NCBI GenBank assembly: GCA_964521715.1
Contig: CAZFSS010000015.1
Location: 10,060-74,059 of the forward strand
Direction: 5' to 3'
Length of the DNA stretch: 64,000 bases
Source of the DNA: an uncultured candidatus Brocadiaceae bacterium
Lineage (GTDB): Bacteria; Planctomycetota; Brocadiia; SM23-32
How positions within the stretch are numbered: the first letter of the stretch is position 1; each line of letters starts with the position of its first letter. The position numbers were made by a program, and so were the translations under genes. Below are positions 1 to 3,914 of this stretch, one piece after another. The notes below the pieces were generated by a model. The model had not been told where the DNA came from. It saw only the letters and a program-made list of their open reading frames with translations, and searched no databases.

Positions 1-72
1 GTCGAGCATTACACGGCAGTGGCGAATGAACGCGCCCAGATCCGGGAAGCACTCCACAAGCCGGTAAGCTAA
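1..72 (+). CDS. 3' end of a truncated hypothetical ORF (VEHYTAVANERAQIREALHKPVS*)
   Basis: Open frame from base 1 to TAA at 70-72, same strand as the rest of the element. Confidence 0.4.
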   Translation, partial: VEHYTAVANERAQIREALHKPVS

Positions 73-108
73 GTTGAGATGGATTGCCCCCCTGACGAAA
101 CGTGGCGA

Positions 109-327
109 ACGGCGCCGGCCCGTGGGAAACGGGCTCGCTGCGGGGGACCTCGGCATGTCCCGCGCGCCGTGGGGTCGGCGGGGTGAATCCGCCCAACCCT
201 CGACTTCTGATCATGGGGCACGTCGCCGCTCTGGCCGAGGAGTGCCCCCCCGCGCTCGTAACGCGGCCGGCGACAGCGTCTATGGTACGCCGGGGTTGGG
301 CCGGGCCTCTTGTAGGTACGGCCCGAC
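109..327 (+). ncRNA. Candidate structured RNA (three-way junction plus five tandem hairpins); strand assumed
   Basis: Pairings 109-115/164-170 enclosing 118-123/129-134 and 140-148/157-163; then 177-181/189-193, 215-221/242-248, 250-254/262-266, 267-272/288-293, 295-303/319-327. Confidence 0.4.
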
Positions 328-350
328 TTCCGGCGTGGAGGAGATGAGTC

Positions 351-710
351 ATGTCGGTGACGGCGAGCGAGAACCTTGGAGGATGGCAAGTAGTCTACGA
401 GTGGCTGTCGGATGGTTCGGGGGATGCGTCGGTTGCGGATACCACACAACTGCGCGGCTACGTGATGCGCATGGTCACGGTGCCTGATGCGGTTGCAGTG
501 CCGGCGGATGATTACGATGTGGAGCTTCACGACGGCGACGGGGCGGATGTTCTGGCCGGCGCCGGAGCGAACCGTGACGAGGCAACGCCAGAGAGCGTGA
601 ATCCGAGTGCACCGCCCTATGTGAACGGCAGTTTGACGCTGGTGGTGAGCAACGCGGGCGACGCGAAGGCCGGAAGTGTGCGGGTCTATCTGCGCAAGTC
701 GAAGGACTGA
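351..710 (+). CDS. Hypothetical beta-rich protein, possibly phage virion/head-module associated
   Basis: SD GGAGGAG 337-343; 119 aa; motifs P-x-DDYDV-x-L-x-D and GAGANRD recall an uncharacterised phage family (recall, not searched). Confidence 0.65.
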   Translation: MSVTASENLGGWQVVYEWLSDGSGDASVADTTQLRGYVMRMVTVPDAVAVPADDYDVELHDGDGADVLAGAGANRDEATPESVNPSAPPYVNGSLTLVVSNAGDAKAGSVRVYLRKSKD

Positions 711-712
711 CC

Positions 713-1045
713 ATGAATGACGAGGGGCTGCGCGAAGAGGAGGAGCTGGATTTTGCGCGGGAGAGGGCGCTTGATCTGGTTGCCGAACTGGAGGTAGGTG
801 AGCTGCGTCGGGGTTGCCCGGGCACCATCAGTAAGATCATCGAAGCGGCACGCGGCGAAGGCGCGGCGGCAGAGCGGGACCGGGCGCGGCAATTGGAGCG
901 GGCATTGCGCGGGGATCCACGCACGGCGCTGGAAGCCATCCTTCGCGGGCTCTCCGTCGAAGAGGCGAAGGGGATGGCCTACGACCGGGTCCAAGCGCGG
1001 ATCAGGGAGCTTGAGCGCAGGCCGGATCAAGCTGAGGACAGCTGA
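713..1045 (+). CDS. Hypothetical charged, helical protein (110 aa)
   Basis: Starts 2 nt after upstream stop, AAGGA upstream; E/R/A-rich. Confidence 0.65.
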   Translation: MNDEGLREEEELDFARERALDLVAELEVGELRRGCPGTISKIIEAARGEGAAAERDRARQLERALRGDPRTALEAILRGLSVEEAKGMAYDRVQARIRELERRPDQAEDS

Positions 1046-1067
1046 AATTGGACAATGTGTCCAATTT
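1045..1067. promoter_or_regulatory. Perfect 10-bp inverted repeat, candidate operator
   Basis: AAATTGGACA-atg-TGTCCAATTT; AT-rich in a GC-rich background. Confidence 0.5.
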
Positions 1068-1214
1068 GGCGGAGGGTGTCAGGTGCGCGTGCCACAAGAA
1101 TCGCACCCCCAGAGGCGGGGGCAAGGTCGCATGGCGGGACTTTTGTGGCGTAGCGGGGCTCTGGTGACGTGCAGGCGCGATTCTGGCGGCAAGGAGGCAA
1201 GGAGTAGAAAGGGC

Positions 1215-1244
1215 TTGACAAGGACGGCGTGAAAGGAGTATGAT
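1215..1244 (+). promoter_or_regulatory. Sigma70-type promoter
   Basis: TTGACA-18 nt-TATGAT. Confidence 0.7.
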
Positions 1245-1286
1245 CGTGGGTGTGAAGAATCGGCCAGTCAGAACAAGCGGAACTGC

Positions 1287-1606
1287 AACGCCCCGTGTGT
1301 GTGTCGGGGCGTTTCCATGTCGGGCGTCAGGTTCCGGGGCAGGCGACTGTCCCGGCGGCTCAGCCGAGCCGTTCACAGCCTGACGCCCGAGTCTTGTACG
1401 AAAGGAGCAAGGTCAGAGGAGCGCGACGCCCGGGGCCGGCGGCTGGGCCCCACCAGCAATGGCACTGCCGGCCCCGTGGCTGCGCGCATGGAGAGGGAAG
1501 TTCAGGAGTTGGCAAGTTTCGGTGTGGAAGGCGGCCTATTCGCACAGAACAGGCCGGGAAGGGTAGAGCCTGGTGCCGGATCGGAGGAGAAAACCCGAAC
1601 CGGCCA
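1287..1606 (+). ncRNA. Candidate structured leader/sRNA downstream of the 1215-1244 promoter
   Basis: Stems 1287-1295/1305-1313, 1320-1331/1379-1390 (12 bp perfect) enclosing a GCGA-tetraloop hairpin and 1356-1361/1366-1371, long stem 1421-1487, hairpins 1533-1555 and 1571-1606. Confidence 0.45.
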
Positions 1607-1626
1607 CGGGAGGAAAGGAGACGGCG

Positions 1627-1932
1627 ATGGGTACGTTGACGAGGGAGGAGAGGTGTCTGGTGCCGGAGCTGCATGGTCCTGCCTTGGATGTGCTGTTTGA
1701 CGAGTGGCGCATCTACGAAGCGCGGGCGGACAGCGGCTTCCAGCGGCTCACGCGGCAAGTCGTCGTATGGCGCCGCGGGAAGGTCGTGGCGACGCAGGAG
1801 TTCATCGGCCCGGCGGCCATCCTGGTGCCAATCGAGGTTGTCGAGTATCAAACCGATCAGGATGCGGAAGACCAGTACCGGCGCTCCTCTGAACATGAAC
1901 ACCGGCGGGCGGTGGCAGCGCAAGCGGAATGA
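1627..1932 (+). CDS. Hypothetical protein (101 aa)
   Basis: Strong SD AGGAAAGGAG 1611-1620 before ATG 1627; in frame with the 1573..1932 ORF. Confidence 0.6.
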   Translation: MGTLTREERCLVPELHGPALDVLFDEWRIYEARADSGFQRLTRQVVVWRRGKVVATQEFIGPAAILVPIEVVEYQTDQDAEDQYRRSSEHEHRRAVAAQAE

Positions 1933-1984
1933 CGCGCCTTTTTCGCCGGCATGTGCTGAGAAGTAAAGACGGGCTCCGTCCGGG

Positions 1985-2013
1985 TTGACTTCCACCGGAT
2001 CAGGGGTTAGCAT
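1985..2013 (+). promoter_or_regulatory. Sigma70-type promoter upstream of xis-int
   Basis: TTGACT-17 nt-TAGCAT. Confidence 0.5.
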
Positions 2014-2270
2014 ACGAGCGGGAAGATGATGGCAGCGGAGGGGGCGAGAGTACCCCCCCCCCCTTTGGGTCCTTTCAAAGGGAAATGCAGCCGGCAGGTT
2101 GATGGGCTGTGCCCCGAAAACGTGTCACAGGTCGAGATTTTTGGTATCAAACAGTATCAAGAGGCGGGTCGTCTGAAGTAGCAAACGGAGGAAAGGGAAG
2201 GAGGGGAGCGGATGGCCGACGCAATGTCTGATCGGCCAGTGAGGTGTCTGGCATGGAGGGTGGAAGGAGA

Positions 2271-2555
2271 ATGGCAGGGCCGGTCCTTGCGACGGCTGGC
2301 GACATCATTACCGACCTGGCTGAACTGCCGGGGGAGGCGCTTGTTACTCAGGCGTACATAGCCCACGTCCTAGGCGTGACGGCAAGGACGGTGCGCAACA
2401 TGGTTGTGCGCAACGAGCTGCCGGGGCCGATCCAGATGGGCCGGCGGGTCTACTGGGTCGCGGGGGTCCTGCGAACTTACATGCGGGAAGCAGCCGAGCG
2501 GGAAGCAGAAAGGGCGGCGGCGGAGATCCGGCGATACAAGGCACTAAGGCCGTAG
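2271..2555 (+). CDS. AlpA/excisionase-like HTH protein
   Basis: SD AAGGAG before ATG 2271; IAHVLGVTARTVRNMV...LPGPIQMGRRVYW; directly upstream of the integrase. Confidence 0.8.
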   Translation: MAGPVLATAGDIITDLAELPGEALVTQAYIAHVLGVTARTVRNMVVRNELPGPIQMGRRVYWVAGVLRTYMREAAEREAERAAAEIRRYKALRP

Positions 2556-2564
2556 GAGGCTGGC

Positions 2565-3845
2565 GTGGCCTACGTCTTCCGTAGCAAGCGCAAGGATGGC
2601 GCGCCGTATGGGCCCTGGCGCTTCCAGTTCACCGACTGGACCGGGCGACGCCGGACAGCAACCGCCAGTGCCTCAAAGACGCGGACCGAGAAGCTCGCCC
2701 AGGAGGTCGACCTGGAGCACCGACTTATTCGTCAAGGGCTACGGCCTGCGCCGGATCCTCATGCAGAGCACAAGAGGCGTCCCTTCTCGGAGCTTGCAGC
2801 GGAGTACTGCGAGTGGGGCGAAAGTCAGGGCGGGCGTGGTGGCCGGCCCTGGAGTGCAACACATGCCCGGATGCGGCGGACCTATCTGGCATGGTGGCGT
2901 GATAGCTTGCACCTTACGAGCTTAGGCGACCTTGGAGGCTGTCTGCCGCGCGTCGAGAAGGTGTTGCGTGACTTGCAGGGCAAGGGCCTCTCCAACAAGA
3001 CCGTCAGGAACTACGCCGAGGCGCTGATGGCCTTCTGTGGCTGGGGCACCATGCGCGGGTATCTGACCGAGAATCCGCTGAGGGGCCTGCGGGGTTTCGA
3101 CACCACGCCGGGCCACAGGAGGCGGGCGCTCACGCCCGAGGAGATCGGGCGCCTGCTGGAAGTTGCCCCGCCGGATCGGCGCATACTGTATCAGGTCGCC
3201 CTTTGCTCGGGGCTGCGGGCGAATGAACTGAGGTCCCTCACGCCAGCGGACCTGGACACGCAGAAGGGCGGACTACTGCTTCGGCCCGAATGGACGAAGA
3301 ACCGAAAAGGCGGCTTCCAGCCGTTGCCTGTGTGGCTCTTGCGGGAGCTGGCCGACTACGCCACCAGGGACAGAGCGACGGCGGCCTACCGGGAAGCGTA
3401 CGAGCAGGCCCACGCGGTAACGGAGGCGCCGGCTGGGCGCTTGCTATTCGTCCCTTCCCATCCGGCGGGGAGCTTCGACGAAGACTGTGCGGCGGCGGGT
3501 ATCCCAAAGCGAAAGCTCGGGGGCAAAGTAGACTTTCACGCGCTGCGGACGACCTTCGTGACGCTGTTGGACGGGGCTGGCGGCAGCGTAAAGGAGACAC
3601 AGACCTTGGCGCGCCATGCTGATCCCGCCCTAACCTGGAACGTCTACGGGCGGGCCTCAGAGGAGCGCCTTGCGGAACTGGCGGCAGTCGTGGGGGAGGT
3701 TGCGCGGGGGCGCGTACGTTACCCTGAGAGCATACAGGGAGCAGTACGCCGGATGGCCGTAGGCGCGCAAGTCTATGAGGAGCAAGAGGATAGGATGGTC
3801 GGGGCGGCGGGATTTGAACCCGCGATCTCTAGCCCCCCATGCTAG
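2565..3845 (+). CDS. Tyrosine recombinase/integrase
   Basis: SGLRANEL (R), WTKNRK (K), DFHALR (HxxR), ARHADPALTWNVY (H, Y); SD AGGAGG; C-terminus overlaps the tRNA antisense. Confidence 0.95.
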   Translation: MAYVFRSKRKDGAPYGPWRFQFTDWTGRRRTATASASKTRTEKLAQEVDLEHRLIRQGLRPAPDPHAEHKRRPFSELAAEYCEWGESQGGRGGRPWSATHARMRRTYLAWWRDSLHLTSLGDLGGCLPRVEKVLRDLQGKGLSNKTVRNYAEALMAFCGWGTMRGYLTENPLRGLRGFDTTPGHRRRALTPEEIGRLLEVAPPDRRILYQVALCSGLRANELRSLTPADLDTQKGGLLLRPEWTKNRKGGFQPLPVWLLRELADYATRDRATAAYREAYEQAHAVTEAPAGRLLFVPSHPAGSFDEDCAAAGIPKRKLGGKVDFHALRTTFVTLLDGAGGSVKETQTLARHADPALTWNVYGRASEERLAELAAVVGEVARGRVRYPESIQGAVRRMAVGAQVYEEQEDRMVGAAGFEPAISSPPC

Positions 3846-3874
3846 CGCCCTAAGCCAGGCTGGGCCACGCCCCG
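3796..3874 (-). tRNA. tRNA-Pro(GGG)
   Basis: CGGGGCG/CGCCCCG acceptor, anticodon arm CTAGC-ATGGGGG-GCTAG, GGTTCAAATCC T-arm, encoded CCA. Confidence 0.95.
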
Positions 3875-3886
3875 ACCGTCGGCACT

Positions 3887-3914
3887 ATTATAGTCTGCCC
3901 CTCGGAGGAATCAA
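3887..3914 (-). promoter_or_regulatory. tRNA-Pro promoter
   Basis: TTGATT-16 nt-TATAAT on the minus strand, 12 nt before the tRNA. Confidence 0.65.

What the first reader, a model, noticed from the sequence alone, without database searches (positions are those of the whole stretch)
1..3874. Compact tRNA-Pro-integrated element that looks like a phage satellite with RNA-rich control regions
Seen: about 2.2 kb with only small co-oriented ORFs separated by two long base-paired spacers, two near-consensus promoters, an operator-like palindrome and a cosQ-like motif, followed by xis-int-att. No tail, lysis or terminase gene lies next to int. Knowledge: PICI/P4-type satellites carry int plus AlpA, packaging signals and capsid-modifying genes, and P4 uses RNA-based immunity. 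Inference: this may be an undescribed satellite from a PVC-type host. Only the right end is visible.
Basis: partly seen in the sequence, partly recalled or inferred. Interest (0 to 1): 0.72.

Follow-up and report, generated by a model that had tools for sequence, protein, structure and literature searches.

The report
Small phage-derived island in tRNA-Pro
The window holds the right end of an 11.7-kb mobile element sitting in a proline tRNA gene of a probable planctomycete; it carries a few phage virion genes but far too few to build a virus, so it is most likely a helper-dependent phage satellite of an undescribed type, or else a worn-down prophage.

Summary
The integrase, the excisionase-like HTH gene and tRNA-Pro(GGG) are real. 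I walked left of the window on public contigs that are 100% identical to it. There I found the second att site: a perfect 29-nt direct repeat, made of the tRNA 3' end plus 4 nt. The repeats bound an element of 11,728 nt with 16 genes, all on one strand.

No terminase, portal, major capsid, tail tube, baseplate or lysis gene is detectable. The element does carry:
- a weak replication-initiator match;
- two AlpA/excisionase-type HTH proteins;
- a phage DUF3102 protein;
- a Mu gpI-like head protease/scaffold;
- a small beta-sandwich protein found in phage virion modules;
- a tape-measure-like protein, which lies outside the window.

It fails the marker sets of P4-like, PICI, cfPICI and PLE satellites, and nothing shows a helper or packaging.

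The "RNA-rich" reading is weak. Only one ~145-nt segment folds unusually well, Rfam finds nothing, and the cosQ-like 10-mer is chance-level.

Related int-xis modules sit in 5.6-15.4 kb tRNA-bounded elements in Planctomycetota MAGs. One of these is collinear with this element and shares DUF3102 and the tape-measure-like gene.

Verdict: a bounded, phage-derived integrative element. It is probably a satellite (about 0.5); the main rival is a decayed prophage.

The parts
1..72 (+). Last 23 codons and stop of a 334-aa Mu gpI-like head protease/scaffold gene. The rest of the gene lies left of the window.
   Evidence: phrog_3244 'head maturation protease' 2.7e-18. 35% identity, 5e-22, to the 'Mu-like prophage I protein' of Psychrobacter phage Y8A, which sits just before the head decoration and major capsid genes.
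73..350 (.). 278-nt intergenic spacer.
   Evidence: Flat GC3 profile. Fold z = -1.0 for 73-212 and -2.4 for 211-350.
351..710 (+). 119-aa beta-sandwich protein of a family found in phage virion modules.
   Evidence: 11 homologs besides itself at 42-51% identity. One lies four genes after an HK97-type capsid gene in a full morphogenesis module (L008). AF2 pLDDT 85, all-beta. Best viral fold match TM 0.88 to an unnamed phage protein. PDB matches are generic jelly-rolls.
713..1045 (+). 110-aa Glu/Arg/Ala-rich ORF, function unknown.
   Evidence: Called as a gene on Logan contigs. No family hit.
1046..1066 (.). Perfect 21-bp palindrome (9-nt arms, 3-nt centre) starting at the base after the stop codon of the 110-aa gene. 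Candidate operator or hairpin.
   Evidence: Read. Single copy in the window and in the loci. No half-site copies elsewhere in the element.
1046..1626 (.). 581-nt intergenic spacer 1.
   Evidence: No coding signal. No convincing translated similarity to any fetched locus. Whole-region fold z = -2.95.
1215..1244 (+). Promoter-like site TTGACA-18-TATGAT (11 of 12), facing the 101-aa ORF.
1296..1440 (+). The only strongly structured segment: a branched hairpin with a perfect 12-bp stem (1320-1331 / 1379-1390).
   Evidence: z = -3.84, 1 of 200 shuffles as stable. Inverted repeat I19. The minus strand gives z = -1.9.
1627..1932 (+). 101-aa ORF with a good Shine-Dalgarno sequence (alternative GTG start at 1573), function unknown.
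   Evidence: Gene call on L001. GC3 signal. No family hit.
1933..2252 (.). 320-nt intergenic spacer 2, not unusually structured.
   Evidence: z = +1.44. Sub-windows give +0.76 and +1.26.
1985..2013 (+). Promoter-like site TTGACT-17-TAGCAT (9 of 12), facing xis-int.
2067..2076 (+). The 'cosQ-like' 10-mer GGGTCCTTTC, inside a small hairpin. Judged a chance resemblance.
   Evidence: One match in the window. 10 of 100 shuffles contain at least one.
2253..2555 (+). 100-aa HTH_17 / excisionase-type DNA-binding protein (probable Xis/AlpA-like).
   Evidence: HTH_17 1.2e-3; phrog_2474 8.5e-6; phrog_66 'excisionase and transcriptional regulator' 1.5e-5. Conserved directly upstream of int in all five related loci.
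2565..3845 (+). 426-aa tyrosine integrase. Its ORF runs through the att core into the tRNA gene.
   Evidence: PF00589 and phrog_1. 36-49% identical relatives in MAGs, three of them labelled Planctomycetota or Brocadiia.
3792..3820 (.). attR core: 29-nt direct repeat AGGATGGTCGGGGCGGCGGGATTTGAACC. The identical attL copy lies 11,728 nt to the left, outside the window.
   Evidence: L017 46-74; L021 147-175.
3796..3874 (-). tRNA-Pro(GGG), intact. Its 3' 25 nt are supplied by the att core.
   Evidence: ARAGORN. Rfam tRNA 58 bits.
3887..3914 (-). Promoter-like site TTGATT-16-TATAAT just upstream of the tRNA. This is host DNA and shows that the sigma70 consensus is meaningful in this organism.

Best explanation
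Window 1-3820 is the right-hand third of an 11,728-nt integrative element inserted in the 3' end of tRNA-Pro(GGG).

Shown:
- A perfect 29-nt direct repeat bounds the element, and the tRNA stays intact.
- All 16 genes lie on one strand. From attL the order is: DUF3102; 127 aa; a 68-aa HTH_17/Nu1-like protein; 75 aa; a 305-aa protein with an O/DnaD-like initiator N-terminus; 99 aa; 166 aa; a 627-aa tape-measure-like protein; 250 aa; 122 aa; a 334-aa Mu gpI-like protease/scaffold; a 119-aa beta-sandwich protein; 110 aa; spacer 1 with promoter-like site P1; 101 aa; spacer 2 with promoter-like site P2; a 100-aa Xis-like HTH; Int; attR.

Inferred:
- Int together with the Xis-like protein integrates and excises the element at the tRNA core.
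- The HTH proteins and the two promoter-like sites control it.
- The 305-aa protein starts its replication.
- The element has no capsid, portal, terminase, tail tube or lysis genes. It therefore cannot build a virion and must rely on a helper tailed phage.
- Its protease/scaffold-like, beta-sandwich and tape-measure-like proteins are the likely means of entering or reshaping the helper's assembly line.

In short, it is a phage satellite of a type not yet described.
For: Boundaries:
- The 29-nt repeat is at L017 46-74 and window 3792-3820.
- Fourteen independent Logan contigs tile the element at 100% identity.

Phage origin:
- Mu gpI-like protein.
- The 119-aa family lies in phage morphogenesis modules.
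- The 627-aa protein has 165 homologs. A confident all-helical model (pLDDT 97-98 over residues 80-380) has named viral matches that are almost all tape-measure or minor tail proteins. Its homolog in L030 sits in the tape-measure position.
- DUF3102 occurs in 53 IMG/VR contigs, most of them 20-46 kb.

Not a whole phage:
- The element is only 11.7 kb.
- No terminase, portal, capsid, tail tube or lysis hit in Pfam, PHROGs or NCBIfam.

Against simple decay:
- Seven genes, from the 305-aa to the 334-aa gene, abut or overlap with gaps of at most 23 nt.
- The att sites are perfect and int is intact.
- The tail-type gene lies upstream of the head-type genes, the reverse of the canonical order.
- The spacers hold no convincing gene remnants.

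A family exists:
- The same int-xis module lies in 5.6, 6.4 and 10.7 kb tRNA-bounded elements that carry primases or helicases.
- A 15.4-kb tRNA-Asp element (L027) is collinear in the order int, DUF3102, HTH_17, tape-measure-like gene, and adds a D5-type primase.

Composition:
- GC 64.5% and GC skew +0.18 in the element, against 67% and +0.01 in the host flank.
Against: - No helper phage was seen. The other 60 kb of the window hold no phage-like genes at the sensitivity used.
- No excised or empty-site contig was found; the three YjbQ-side contigs shown either carry int beside the tRNA or stop at its 3' end.
- No copy or relative turned up in IMG/VR with the 334-aa or 627-aa protein as single queries.
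- No primase, helicase or TerS was found.
- The initiator assignment is weak (phrog_270 5.5e-5). The MAG's own annotation gives only the C-terminal 130 aa of that ORF.
- Nine of the 16 proteins match nothing, so a divergent capsid or packaging gene could be hidden among them.
- More than half of the right-hand 2.2 kb is non-coding, which could equally be decay.
- Tail genes are very rare in known satellites (PMC10085698).
Confidence: 0.5

Rival explanations
1. A decayed (cryptic) prophage. A normal temperate tailed phage integrated at tRNA-Pro and lost most of its morphogenesis, packaging and lysis genes by deletion and rearrangement. The survivors (tape-measure-like, protease/scaffold-like, beta-sandwich) are leftovers or domesticated genes, and the long spacers are deletion scars.
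For: - All recognisable cargo is phage-derived.
- The virion gene set is incomplete and in a non-canonical order.
- About 1.2 kb of the right-hand 2.2 kb is non-coding.
- The source annotation has a shortened product for the initiator-like ORF.
- No sign of excision or of a helper.
- Degraded prophages are a known look-alike of satellites (PMC10085698).
Against: - The 29-nt att repeats are perfect and the integrase is intact, with all catalytic residues.
- A seven-gene block is tightly coupled, with no pseudogene fragments.
- The spacers hold no convincing translated remnants.
- No parent-like phage shares more than one gene with the element.
- Independent small elements with the same int-xis module, or with the same DUF3102 plus tape-measure-like pair, are also cleanly bounded at 5.6-15.4 kb.
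Confidence: 0.3
2. A non-viral integrative, mobilisable genomic island. It uses a phage-type integrase and merely carries phage-like genes as cargo, for example for interference with phages, without being packaged itself.
For: - The int-xis module travels with very different cargo in the relatives.
- Most genes are unknown.
- No packaging function was found.
Against: - No relaxase, oriT-type or conjugation-related hit, and no match in PADLOC for ten of its proteins.
- The recognisable genes are virion-assembly genes, not typical island cargo.
Confidence: 0.1
3. A complete, very small virus of an unknown kind, whose capsid and packaging proteins are among the nine unannotated ORFs.
For: - Nine proteins have no detectable relatives in the profile libraries.
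- Related small elements carry capsid-type genes: a protease-capsid fusion in L014 and an S49 protease in L015.
Against: - The recognisable genes belong to tailed-phage assembly, which needs portal, terminase and capsid proteins. These are usually easy to detect.
- No ATPase motif-bearing family was hit.
- 11.7 kb is at or below the smallest known tailed phages (my knowledge, not tested here).
Confidence: 0.07

Closest known systems
PICI / capsid-forming PICI (cfPICI) satellites
   Same: - 10-15 kb island bounded by att repeats.
- Tyrosine integrase.
- AlpA/MerR-type small HTH regulators.
- A replication gene.
- One or more head-assembly genes.
- No lysis genes.
- One-directional gene layout.
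   Different: - No primase-replicase and no TerS.
- No capsid, portal or head-tail adaptor. cfPICIs carry these.
- Carries a tape-measure-like gene, a class that SatelliteFinder forbids for these families (PMC10085698).
- int lies at the downstream end and reads towards att.
- The host phylum has no described satellites: a full-text search for Planctomycetes, prophage and satellite found nothing relevant.
P4-like satellites
   Same: - About 11 kb, tRNA-integrated, with int plus an AlpA-type regulator.
- Proteins that act on the helper's capsid (Sid and Psu in P4; a scaffold-like and a small beta-sandwich protein here).
   Different: - No Psu, Delta, Sid, epsilon or alpha primase-helicase homolog.
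- No evidence for an RNA immunity system.
- P4-like elements are almost confined to Enterobacterales (PMC10085698).
Small int-xis elements of Planctomycetota MAGs found here (L013, L015, L016) and the 15.4-kb tRNA-Asp element L027
   Same: - Homologous Int (36-49% identity) and Xis-like HTH.
- The att core overlaps the int 3' end.
- tRNA 3'-end targets.
- L027 shares DUF3102 (65-77% identity) and the tape-measure-like protein (36% identity) in the same circular order.
   Different: - Their cargo is otherwise unrelated.
- They carry clear primases or helicases (RepB/DnaB-like, Prim-Pol, DnaB, D5-type), which this element lacks.
- In the tRNA-bounded relatives the tRNA is at the far end from int, and they use different tRNAs.
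Tycheposons (tRNA-targeting integrative elements of marine cyanobacteria; bioRxiv 10.1101/2020.12.28.424599)
   Same: Small tRNA-integrating elements with a tyrosine recombinase, some of them satellite-like (from my knowledge and the abstract, not tested).
   Different: No sequence relationship was tested, the host phylum is different, and no helicase/primase module is present here.

Membership tests
tRNA-integrated element with a tyrosine recombinase (generic integrative element) | Integrase of the tyrosine recombinase family with its catalytic residues | tested here: met
   PF00589 3.7e-10 and phrog_1 2.2e-40. GLRANE, KNRK, HALRTT, LARHAD and NVYGR are read in the translation.
tRNA-integrated element with a tyrosine recombinase (generic integrative element) | Direct repeats of the tRNA 3' end bounding the element | tested here: met
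   A perfect 29-nt repeat with copies 11,728 nt apart.
Complete temperate tailed prophage | Terminase, portal, major capsid, tail and lysis modules within the att-bounded DNA; size above about 30 kb | tested here: not met
   The element is 11.7 kb. None of these families is hit in Pfam, PHROGs or NCBIfam. The only virion-type genes are one tape-measure-like, one protease/scaffold-like and one small structural-module gene.
P4-like satellite (SatelliteFinder markers, PMC10085698) | int plus Psu, Delta, Sid, an AlpA-like regulator, epsilon (Ash) and the alpha primase-helicase | tested here: not met
   Only int and AlpA/HTH_17-type regulators were found. No hit to any of the other five through Pfam or PHROGs. 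The dedicated SatelliteFinder profiles were not available.
PICI (PMC10085698) | int, a regulator (AlpA/MerR/Stl), a primase-replicase, a capsid-morphogenesis gene, a small terminase; no tail or holin genes | tested here: not met
   - int and the regulator are present.
- Replication rests only on a weak O-like initiator hit (5.5e-5), with no primase.
- A scaffold/protease-like gene could count as capsid morphogenesis.
- There is no TerS; only a 7.7e-4 Nu1-like HTH hit in the 68-aa protein.
- A tape-measure-like gene is present.
cfPICI (PMC10085698) | Own capsid, portal, head-tail adaptor/connector and protease, plus TerS; no tail genes | tested here: not met
   Only the protease/scaffold-like gene is found. 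No capsid, portal or connector hit. A tape-measure-like gene is present.
PLE (PMC10085698) | A Vibrio-specific marker set (capR, repA, nixI, lidI and others) | not tested
   No PLE profiles were at hand. The host and integrase type make membership very unlikely.
Phage satellite in the functional sense | Excision, replication and packaging that depend on a helper phage | not testable with these tools
   Only integrated copies were seen. One contig breaks exactly at the tRNA 3' end, which is suggestive at most.
Tail tape measure protein (TP901-type core) | Fold and sequence relationship to tape measure proteins, and position in a tail module | tested here: inconclusive
   - The named viral fold matches are almost all tape-measure or minor tail proteins, at E down to 5e-8 but with TM only 0.3-0.4.
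- Only 2 of 54 family members hit tape-measure PHROGs, and weakly.
- A homolog sits in the tape-measure position in L030.
- Here and in L027 there is no tail module around the gene.

The most novel reading that the evidence does not exclude
A new family of phage satellites in Planctomycetota. Instead of, or besides, tampering with the helper's capsid through a Mu gpI-like protease/scaffold and a small capsid-module protein, they bring their own tape-measure-like protein. They would thus intervene in the helper's tail assembly or DNA delivery, something no described satellite family does. The collinear 15.4-kb tRNA-Asp element (L027) would be a second member.
Probability: 0.2. Interest if true: 0.8.

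Novelty: new variant of a known kind. Interest (0 to 1): 0.55.

Why it matters
Known phage satellites come almost entirely from Proteobacteria and Firmicutes and fall into a handful of families. A cleanly bounded 11.7-kb element in a probable planctomycete would extend satellites to a phylum whose phages are barely known. It combines an integrase, AlpA-type regulators and a partial, unusual set of virion genes. It also points to a hijacking toolkit that includes a tail component, which current satellite finders explicitly exclude. If it turns out to be a remnant, it is still a useful case for telling satellites from decayed prophages. The small int-xis elements in the related MAGs give a ready comparison set.

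Tried and rejected
- Exact 40-mer searches for the left flank in genome contigs and metagenome contigs found nothing.
- The search for homologous proteins with the 305-aa protein returned nothing, not even the query itself. With the 627-aa protein it returned only the query.
- IMG/VR scans with the 334-aa and 627-aa proteins as single queries found no relatives.
- PDB sequence searches for the 334-, 627-, 250-, 305- and 166-aa proteins, and for the 627-aa family profile, gave only noise.
- tblastn against phage genomes found nothing for the 627-aa and 119-aa proteins.
- PADLOC found no defence-system match for the ten proteins tested.
- My by-eye impression that the 250-aa protein is a Prim-Pol was not supported by BLASTP against a real Prim-Pol from L016, by Pfam or by PDB. 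I rejected it as unproven.
- The 94-nt 'tRNA-Glu' that ARAGORN calls at attL is a pseudo-tRNA made of the displaced tRNA-Pro end plus element DNA.
- The early inference that the source contig starts inside the element was wrong. The DUF3102 gene at the far left is also on the 83-kb source contig.
- An 11-nt and a 15-nt match to the tRNA inside L002 were chance. The true attL lay further left.
- Translated and nucleotide searches of the three spacers against about 1.1 Mb of fetched phage-like loci gave only short, low-scoring, composition-driven hits.
- A home-made sliding-window z-score scan timed out. I replaced it with strand folding on 16 windows.
- Paper searches for the run accessions found nothing.

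Full report
**What is in the window**

ARAGORN and Rfam find one tRNA, tRNA-Pro(GGG), on the minus strand at 3796-3874. Its 3' end faces a plus-strand ORF at 2565-3845. That ORF is a tyrosine integrase (PF00589 3.7e-10; phrog_1 2.2e-40), and the catalytic Arg, Lys, His-x-x-Arg, His and Tyr can be read in its translation.

Directly upstream, at 2253-2555, lies a 100-aa HTH_17 / excisionase-type protein. Further left are three small plus-strand ORFs: 351-710 (119 aa), 713-1045 (110 aa) and 1627-1932 (101 aa, with a good Shine-Dalgarno sequence). They are separated by non-coding stretches of 278, 581 and 320 nt. The first 72 nt of the window are the end of a larger gene.

**The control-region claims**

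- Promoters. The consensus scan finds TTGACA-18-TATGAT at 1215-1244 and TTGACT-17-TAGCAT at 1985-2013. A third site, TTGATT-16-TATAAT, lies just upstream of the tRNA. That makes three sites against 0.5 +/- 0.7 in shuffles.
- Palindrome. A perfect 21-bp palindrome begins at the base after the stop of the 110-aa gene (1046-1066). It occurs once.
- Folding. Spacer 1 as a whole has z = -2.95. In 110-150-nt windows only 1296-1440 stands out (z = -3.84), and 211-350 is moderate (z = -2.4). Spacer 2 folds no better than shuffles (z = +1.44), and six coding control windows give -1.7 to +0.4. The minus strand of 1046-1190 folds well (z = -3.57) and holds a terminator-like hairpin.
- Known RNA families. 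Rfam finds only the tRNA.
- cosQ. The 'cosQ-like' motif is a single 10-mer that 10% of shuffles also contain.

The sequence features are mostly real. 'RNA-rich control' rests on one hairpin region, and it cannot be tested by covariation because no diverged copies of the spacers were found.

**Extending the element to the left**

The 119-aa protein is encoded on six Logan contigs. The longest, L002, runs 6,153 nt left of the window and is identical to it in the overlap.

Exact-sequence look-ups showed that these proteins are on the 83,309-nt NCBI source contig. They also gave ids that could be walked further. L017 and L021 add another 1.9 kb.

At L017 46-74 lies AGGATGGTCGGGGCGGCGGGATTTGAACC. 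It is identical to window 3792-3820, that is, the last 25 nt of tRNA-Pro plus 4 nt. All fourteen contigs tile a single composite at 100% identity. The two repeat copies are 11,728 nt apart.

Left of attL only 146 nt of non-coding flank is visible. ARAGORN's 94-nt 'tRNA-Glu' across attL is the displaced tRNA fragment plus element DNA, not a gene.

**Gene content**

From attL to attR, all on one strand:

| Gene | Evidence |
|---|---|
| DUF3102 protein, 146 aa | PF11300. Relatives in 53 IMG/VR viral contigs, most of them 20-46 kb |
| 127-aa ORF | Repeats the DUF3102 C-terminal motif |
| 68-aa HTH | HTH_17 7e-5; Phage_Nu1 7.7e-4 |
| 75-aa ORF | No match |
| 305-aa protein | N-terminus weakly matches replication initiators (phrog_270 5.5e-5; O-like phrog_345 0.019) |
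| 99- and 166-aa ORFs | No match |
| 627-aa protein | Tape-measure-like, see below |
| 250- and 122-aa ORFs | No match |
| 334-aa protein | Mu gpI-like protease/scaffold, see below |
| In the window: 119-, 110- and 101-aa ORFs, Xis-like HTH, Int | See above and below |

Pfam, PHROGs, NCBIfam and PADLOC give nothing else. In particular there is no terminase, portal, major capsid, tail tube, baseplate, holin or endolysin.

**The three virion-type genes**

*The 334-aa protein.* It matches phrog_3244 'head maturation protease' (2.7e-18). It is 35% identical to the 'Mu-like prophage I protein' of Psychrobacter phage Y8A. In that phage the gene is followed by head decoration and major capsid genes. 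Here it is followed by the 119-aa gene and no capsid gene.

*The 119-aa family.* It has eleven members besides the query, at 42-51% identity. One member sits inside a complete morphogenesis module, four genes after an HK97-type capsid gene (L008). Its AF2 model (pLDDT 85) is a beta-sandwich. The best viral match has TM 0.88 but no name, and the PDB matches are generic.

*The 627-aa protein.* It is an orphan by word-based search. Full HMMER against 1.84 billion representatives finds 165 relatives of about 450-550 aa. The AF2 model is all-helical with pLDDT 97-98 over residues 80-380. Its named BFVD matches are almost all tape-measure or minor tail proteins, at E down to 5e-8 but with low TM, as expected for flexible helical models. 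Two of 54 family members weakly hit tape-measure PHROGs. In L030 and L032 the homolog sits in a tail module. I call it tape-measure-like, not a proven tape measure.

**Relatives**

The integrase has 36-49% identical relatives in five MAG loci, three of them labelled Planctomycetota or Brocadiia. The Xis-like gene is conserved next to each. Three are bounded by tRNA 3'-end repeats:

| Locus | Target | Size | Cargo |
|---|---|---|---|
| L013 | tRNA-Ala | 6.4 kb | RepB-primase / DnaB-like protein |
| L016 | tRNA-Arg | 5.6 kb | Prim-Pol |
| L015 | tRNA-Leu | 10.7 kb | DnaB and an S49 protease |

Of the other two, L012 has the integrase beside a tmRNA gene and carries a DnaG/DUF3987 primase. L014 has a tmRNA gene about 9 kb upstream of the integrase and carries a protease-capsid fusion and a head-morphogenesis protein.

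Independently, the tape-measure-like family led to L027. This is a 15,438-nt element bounded by a 57-nt repeat of tRNA-Asp. It carries int, DUF3102 (65-77% identical to ours), HTH_17, the tape-measure-like protein (36% identical) and a D5-type primase (phrog_864 3e-64). Read as a circle, our element has the same order: int, DUF3102, HTH, tape-measure-like gene.

So small, cleanly bounded, phage-derived elements are a recurring feature in these bacteria, and at least one shares part of this element's backbone.

**Interpretation**

Solidly shown: this is an 11.7-kb att-bounded integrative element of phage ancestry that cannot encode a virion by itself.

*For a helper-dependent satellite:*
- The size.
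- Intact int and att sites.
- AlpA-type regulators.
- A tightly coupled seven-gene block with no pseudogene debris.
- No gene remnants in the spacers.
- Head and tail genes in a non-canonical order, which simple deletions would not produce.
- Sibling elements exist.
- Distinct composition: GC skew +0.18 against +0.01 in the host flank.

*Against it:*
- No helper phage, and no phage-like genes in the other 60 kb of the window.
- No excised form.
- No primase or TerS.
- A weak initiator assignment, shortened in the MAG's own annotation.
- Much non-coding DNA at the right end.
- A tail-type gene, which known satellites almost never have (PMC10085698).

The element does not meet the marker sets of P4-like, PICI or cfPICI satellites as defined in that paper.

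I put about 0.5 on 'satellite of an undescribed type', about 0.3 on 'decayed prophage', and the rest on a non-viral island or an unrecognised mini-virus.

**Novelty**

If it is a satellite, it is a new variant: a new phylum, a new marker combination, and a tail-type gene. The paper searches run here turned up no description of such elements in Planctomycetes or of satellites with tape-measure genes. These searches were not exhaustive. The finding is worth following up with read-level junction analysis and structure prediction of the nine unknown proteins.

Noticed in passing
window 2565-3845 and attL (L021 147-497): The int ORF runs through the 29-nt att core and stops 25 nt inside host-derived tRNA sequence. 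At attL the same frame stays open for 115 codons from an ATG inside the core. In an excised circle Int would therefore carry a tail about 105 aa longer. Relatives L013, L015 and L016 also have the int 3' end lying over the att repeat.
   Followed up: partly
L021 151-244 (attL, about 7.9 kb left of window position 1): ARAGORN calls a 94-nt 'tRNA-Glu(CTC)'. It is the displaced 25-nt tRNA-Pro 3' end plus element DNA, and similarity to the real tRNA fades beyond the core, so it is a pseudo-tRNA.
   Followed up: yes
window 3796 (start of contig L047, sample ERR4334734): One Logan contig ends exactly at the 3' end of tRNA-Pro. The assembly graph therefore seems to branch at att in that sample. This could reflect an empty site, an excised form or another occupant, and it was not resolved.
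   Followed up: partly
window 1046-1190, minus strand: The minus strand folds far better than shuffles (z = -3.57) and contains a terminator-like hairpin (1123-1104). It could be an antisense RNA or a bidirectional terminator behind the 110-aa gene. No minus-strand promoter was found.
   Followed up: partly
whole element versus window 3821-64000: The element is purine-rich on the coding strand. GC skew is +0.18, AT skew +0.11 and GC 64.5%, against about +0.01, -0.01 and 67% in the host DNA.
   Followed up: yes
L013, L015, L016, L012, L014 (MAGs, three labelled Planctomycetota or Brocadiia): A set of 5.6-10.7 kb elements bounded by tRNA repeats (L013, L015, L016), plus two integrase loci with a nearby tmRNA gene and no repeat found (L012, L014). 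All carry a homologous int-xis pair with varied cargo: RepB/DnaB-like primase-helicase, Prim-Pol, DnaG/DUF3987, DnaB plus S49 protease, and a protease-capsid fusion. They look like an unexplored pool of satellite-like elements.
   Followed up: partly
L027 2259-17753 (also L028, L029, L034): A 15,438-nt element in tRNA-Asp with a 57-nt att repeat. It carries int, a duplicated DUF3102 (a 297-nt tandem repeat), HTH_17, a tape-measure-like protein and a D5-type primase. It was recovered at 100% identity from four data sets.
   Followed up: partly
L002 478-1395 (the 305-aa ORF, left of the window): The NCBI annotation of the source contig lists only the C-terminal 130 aa (from Met176) of this initiator-like ORF. 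Three Logan assemblies (L002, L021 and one more contig) encode the full 305 codons. This is either a gene-calling difference or a disruption in the MAG.
   Followed up: partly
L002 4101-4853 (the 250-aa ORF, left of the window): By eye it has Prim-Pol-like motifs (LRVFAV..., GGRLHVFF) but lacks an obvious DxD. BLASTP, Pfam and PDB searches give no support.
   Followed up: yes
L017 353-1173: The DUF3102 gene (146 aa) is followed by a 127-aa ORF that starts by repeating its LTDAYRA(L/I)GI motif. This may be a split or a partial duplication of a two-repeat DUF3102 protein like the 333-aa one in L027.
   Followed up: no
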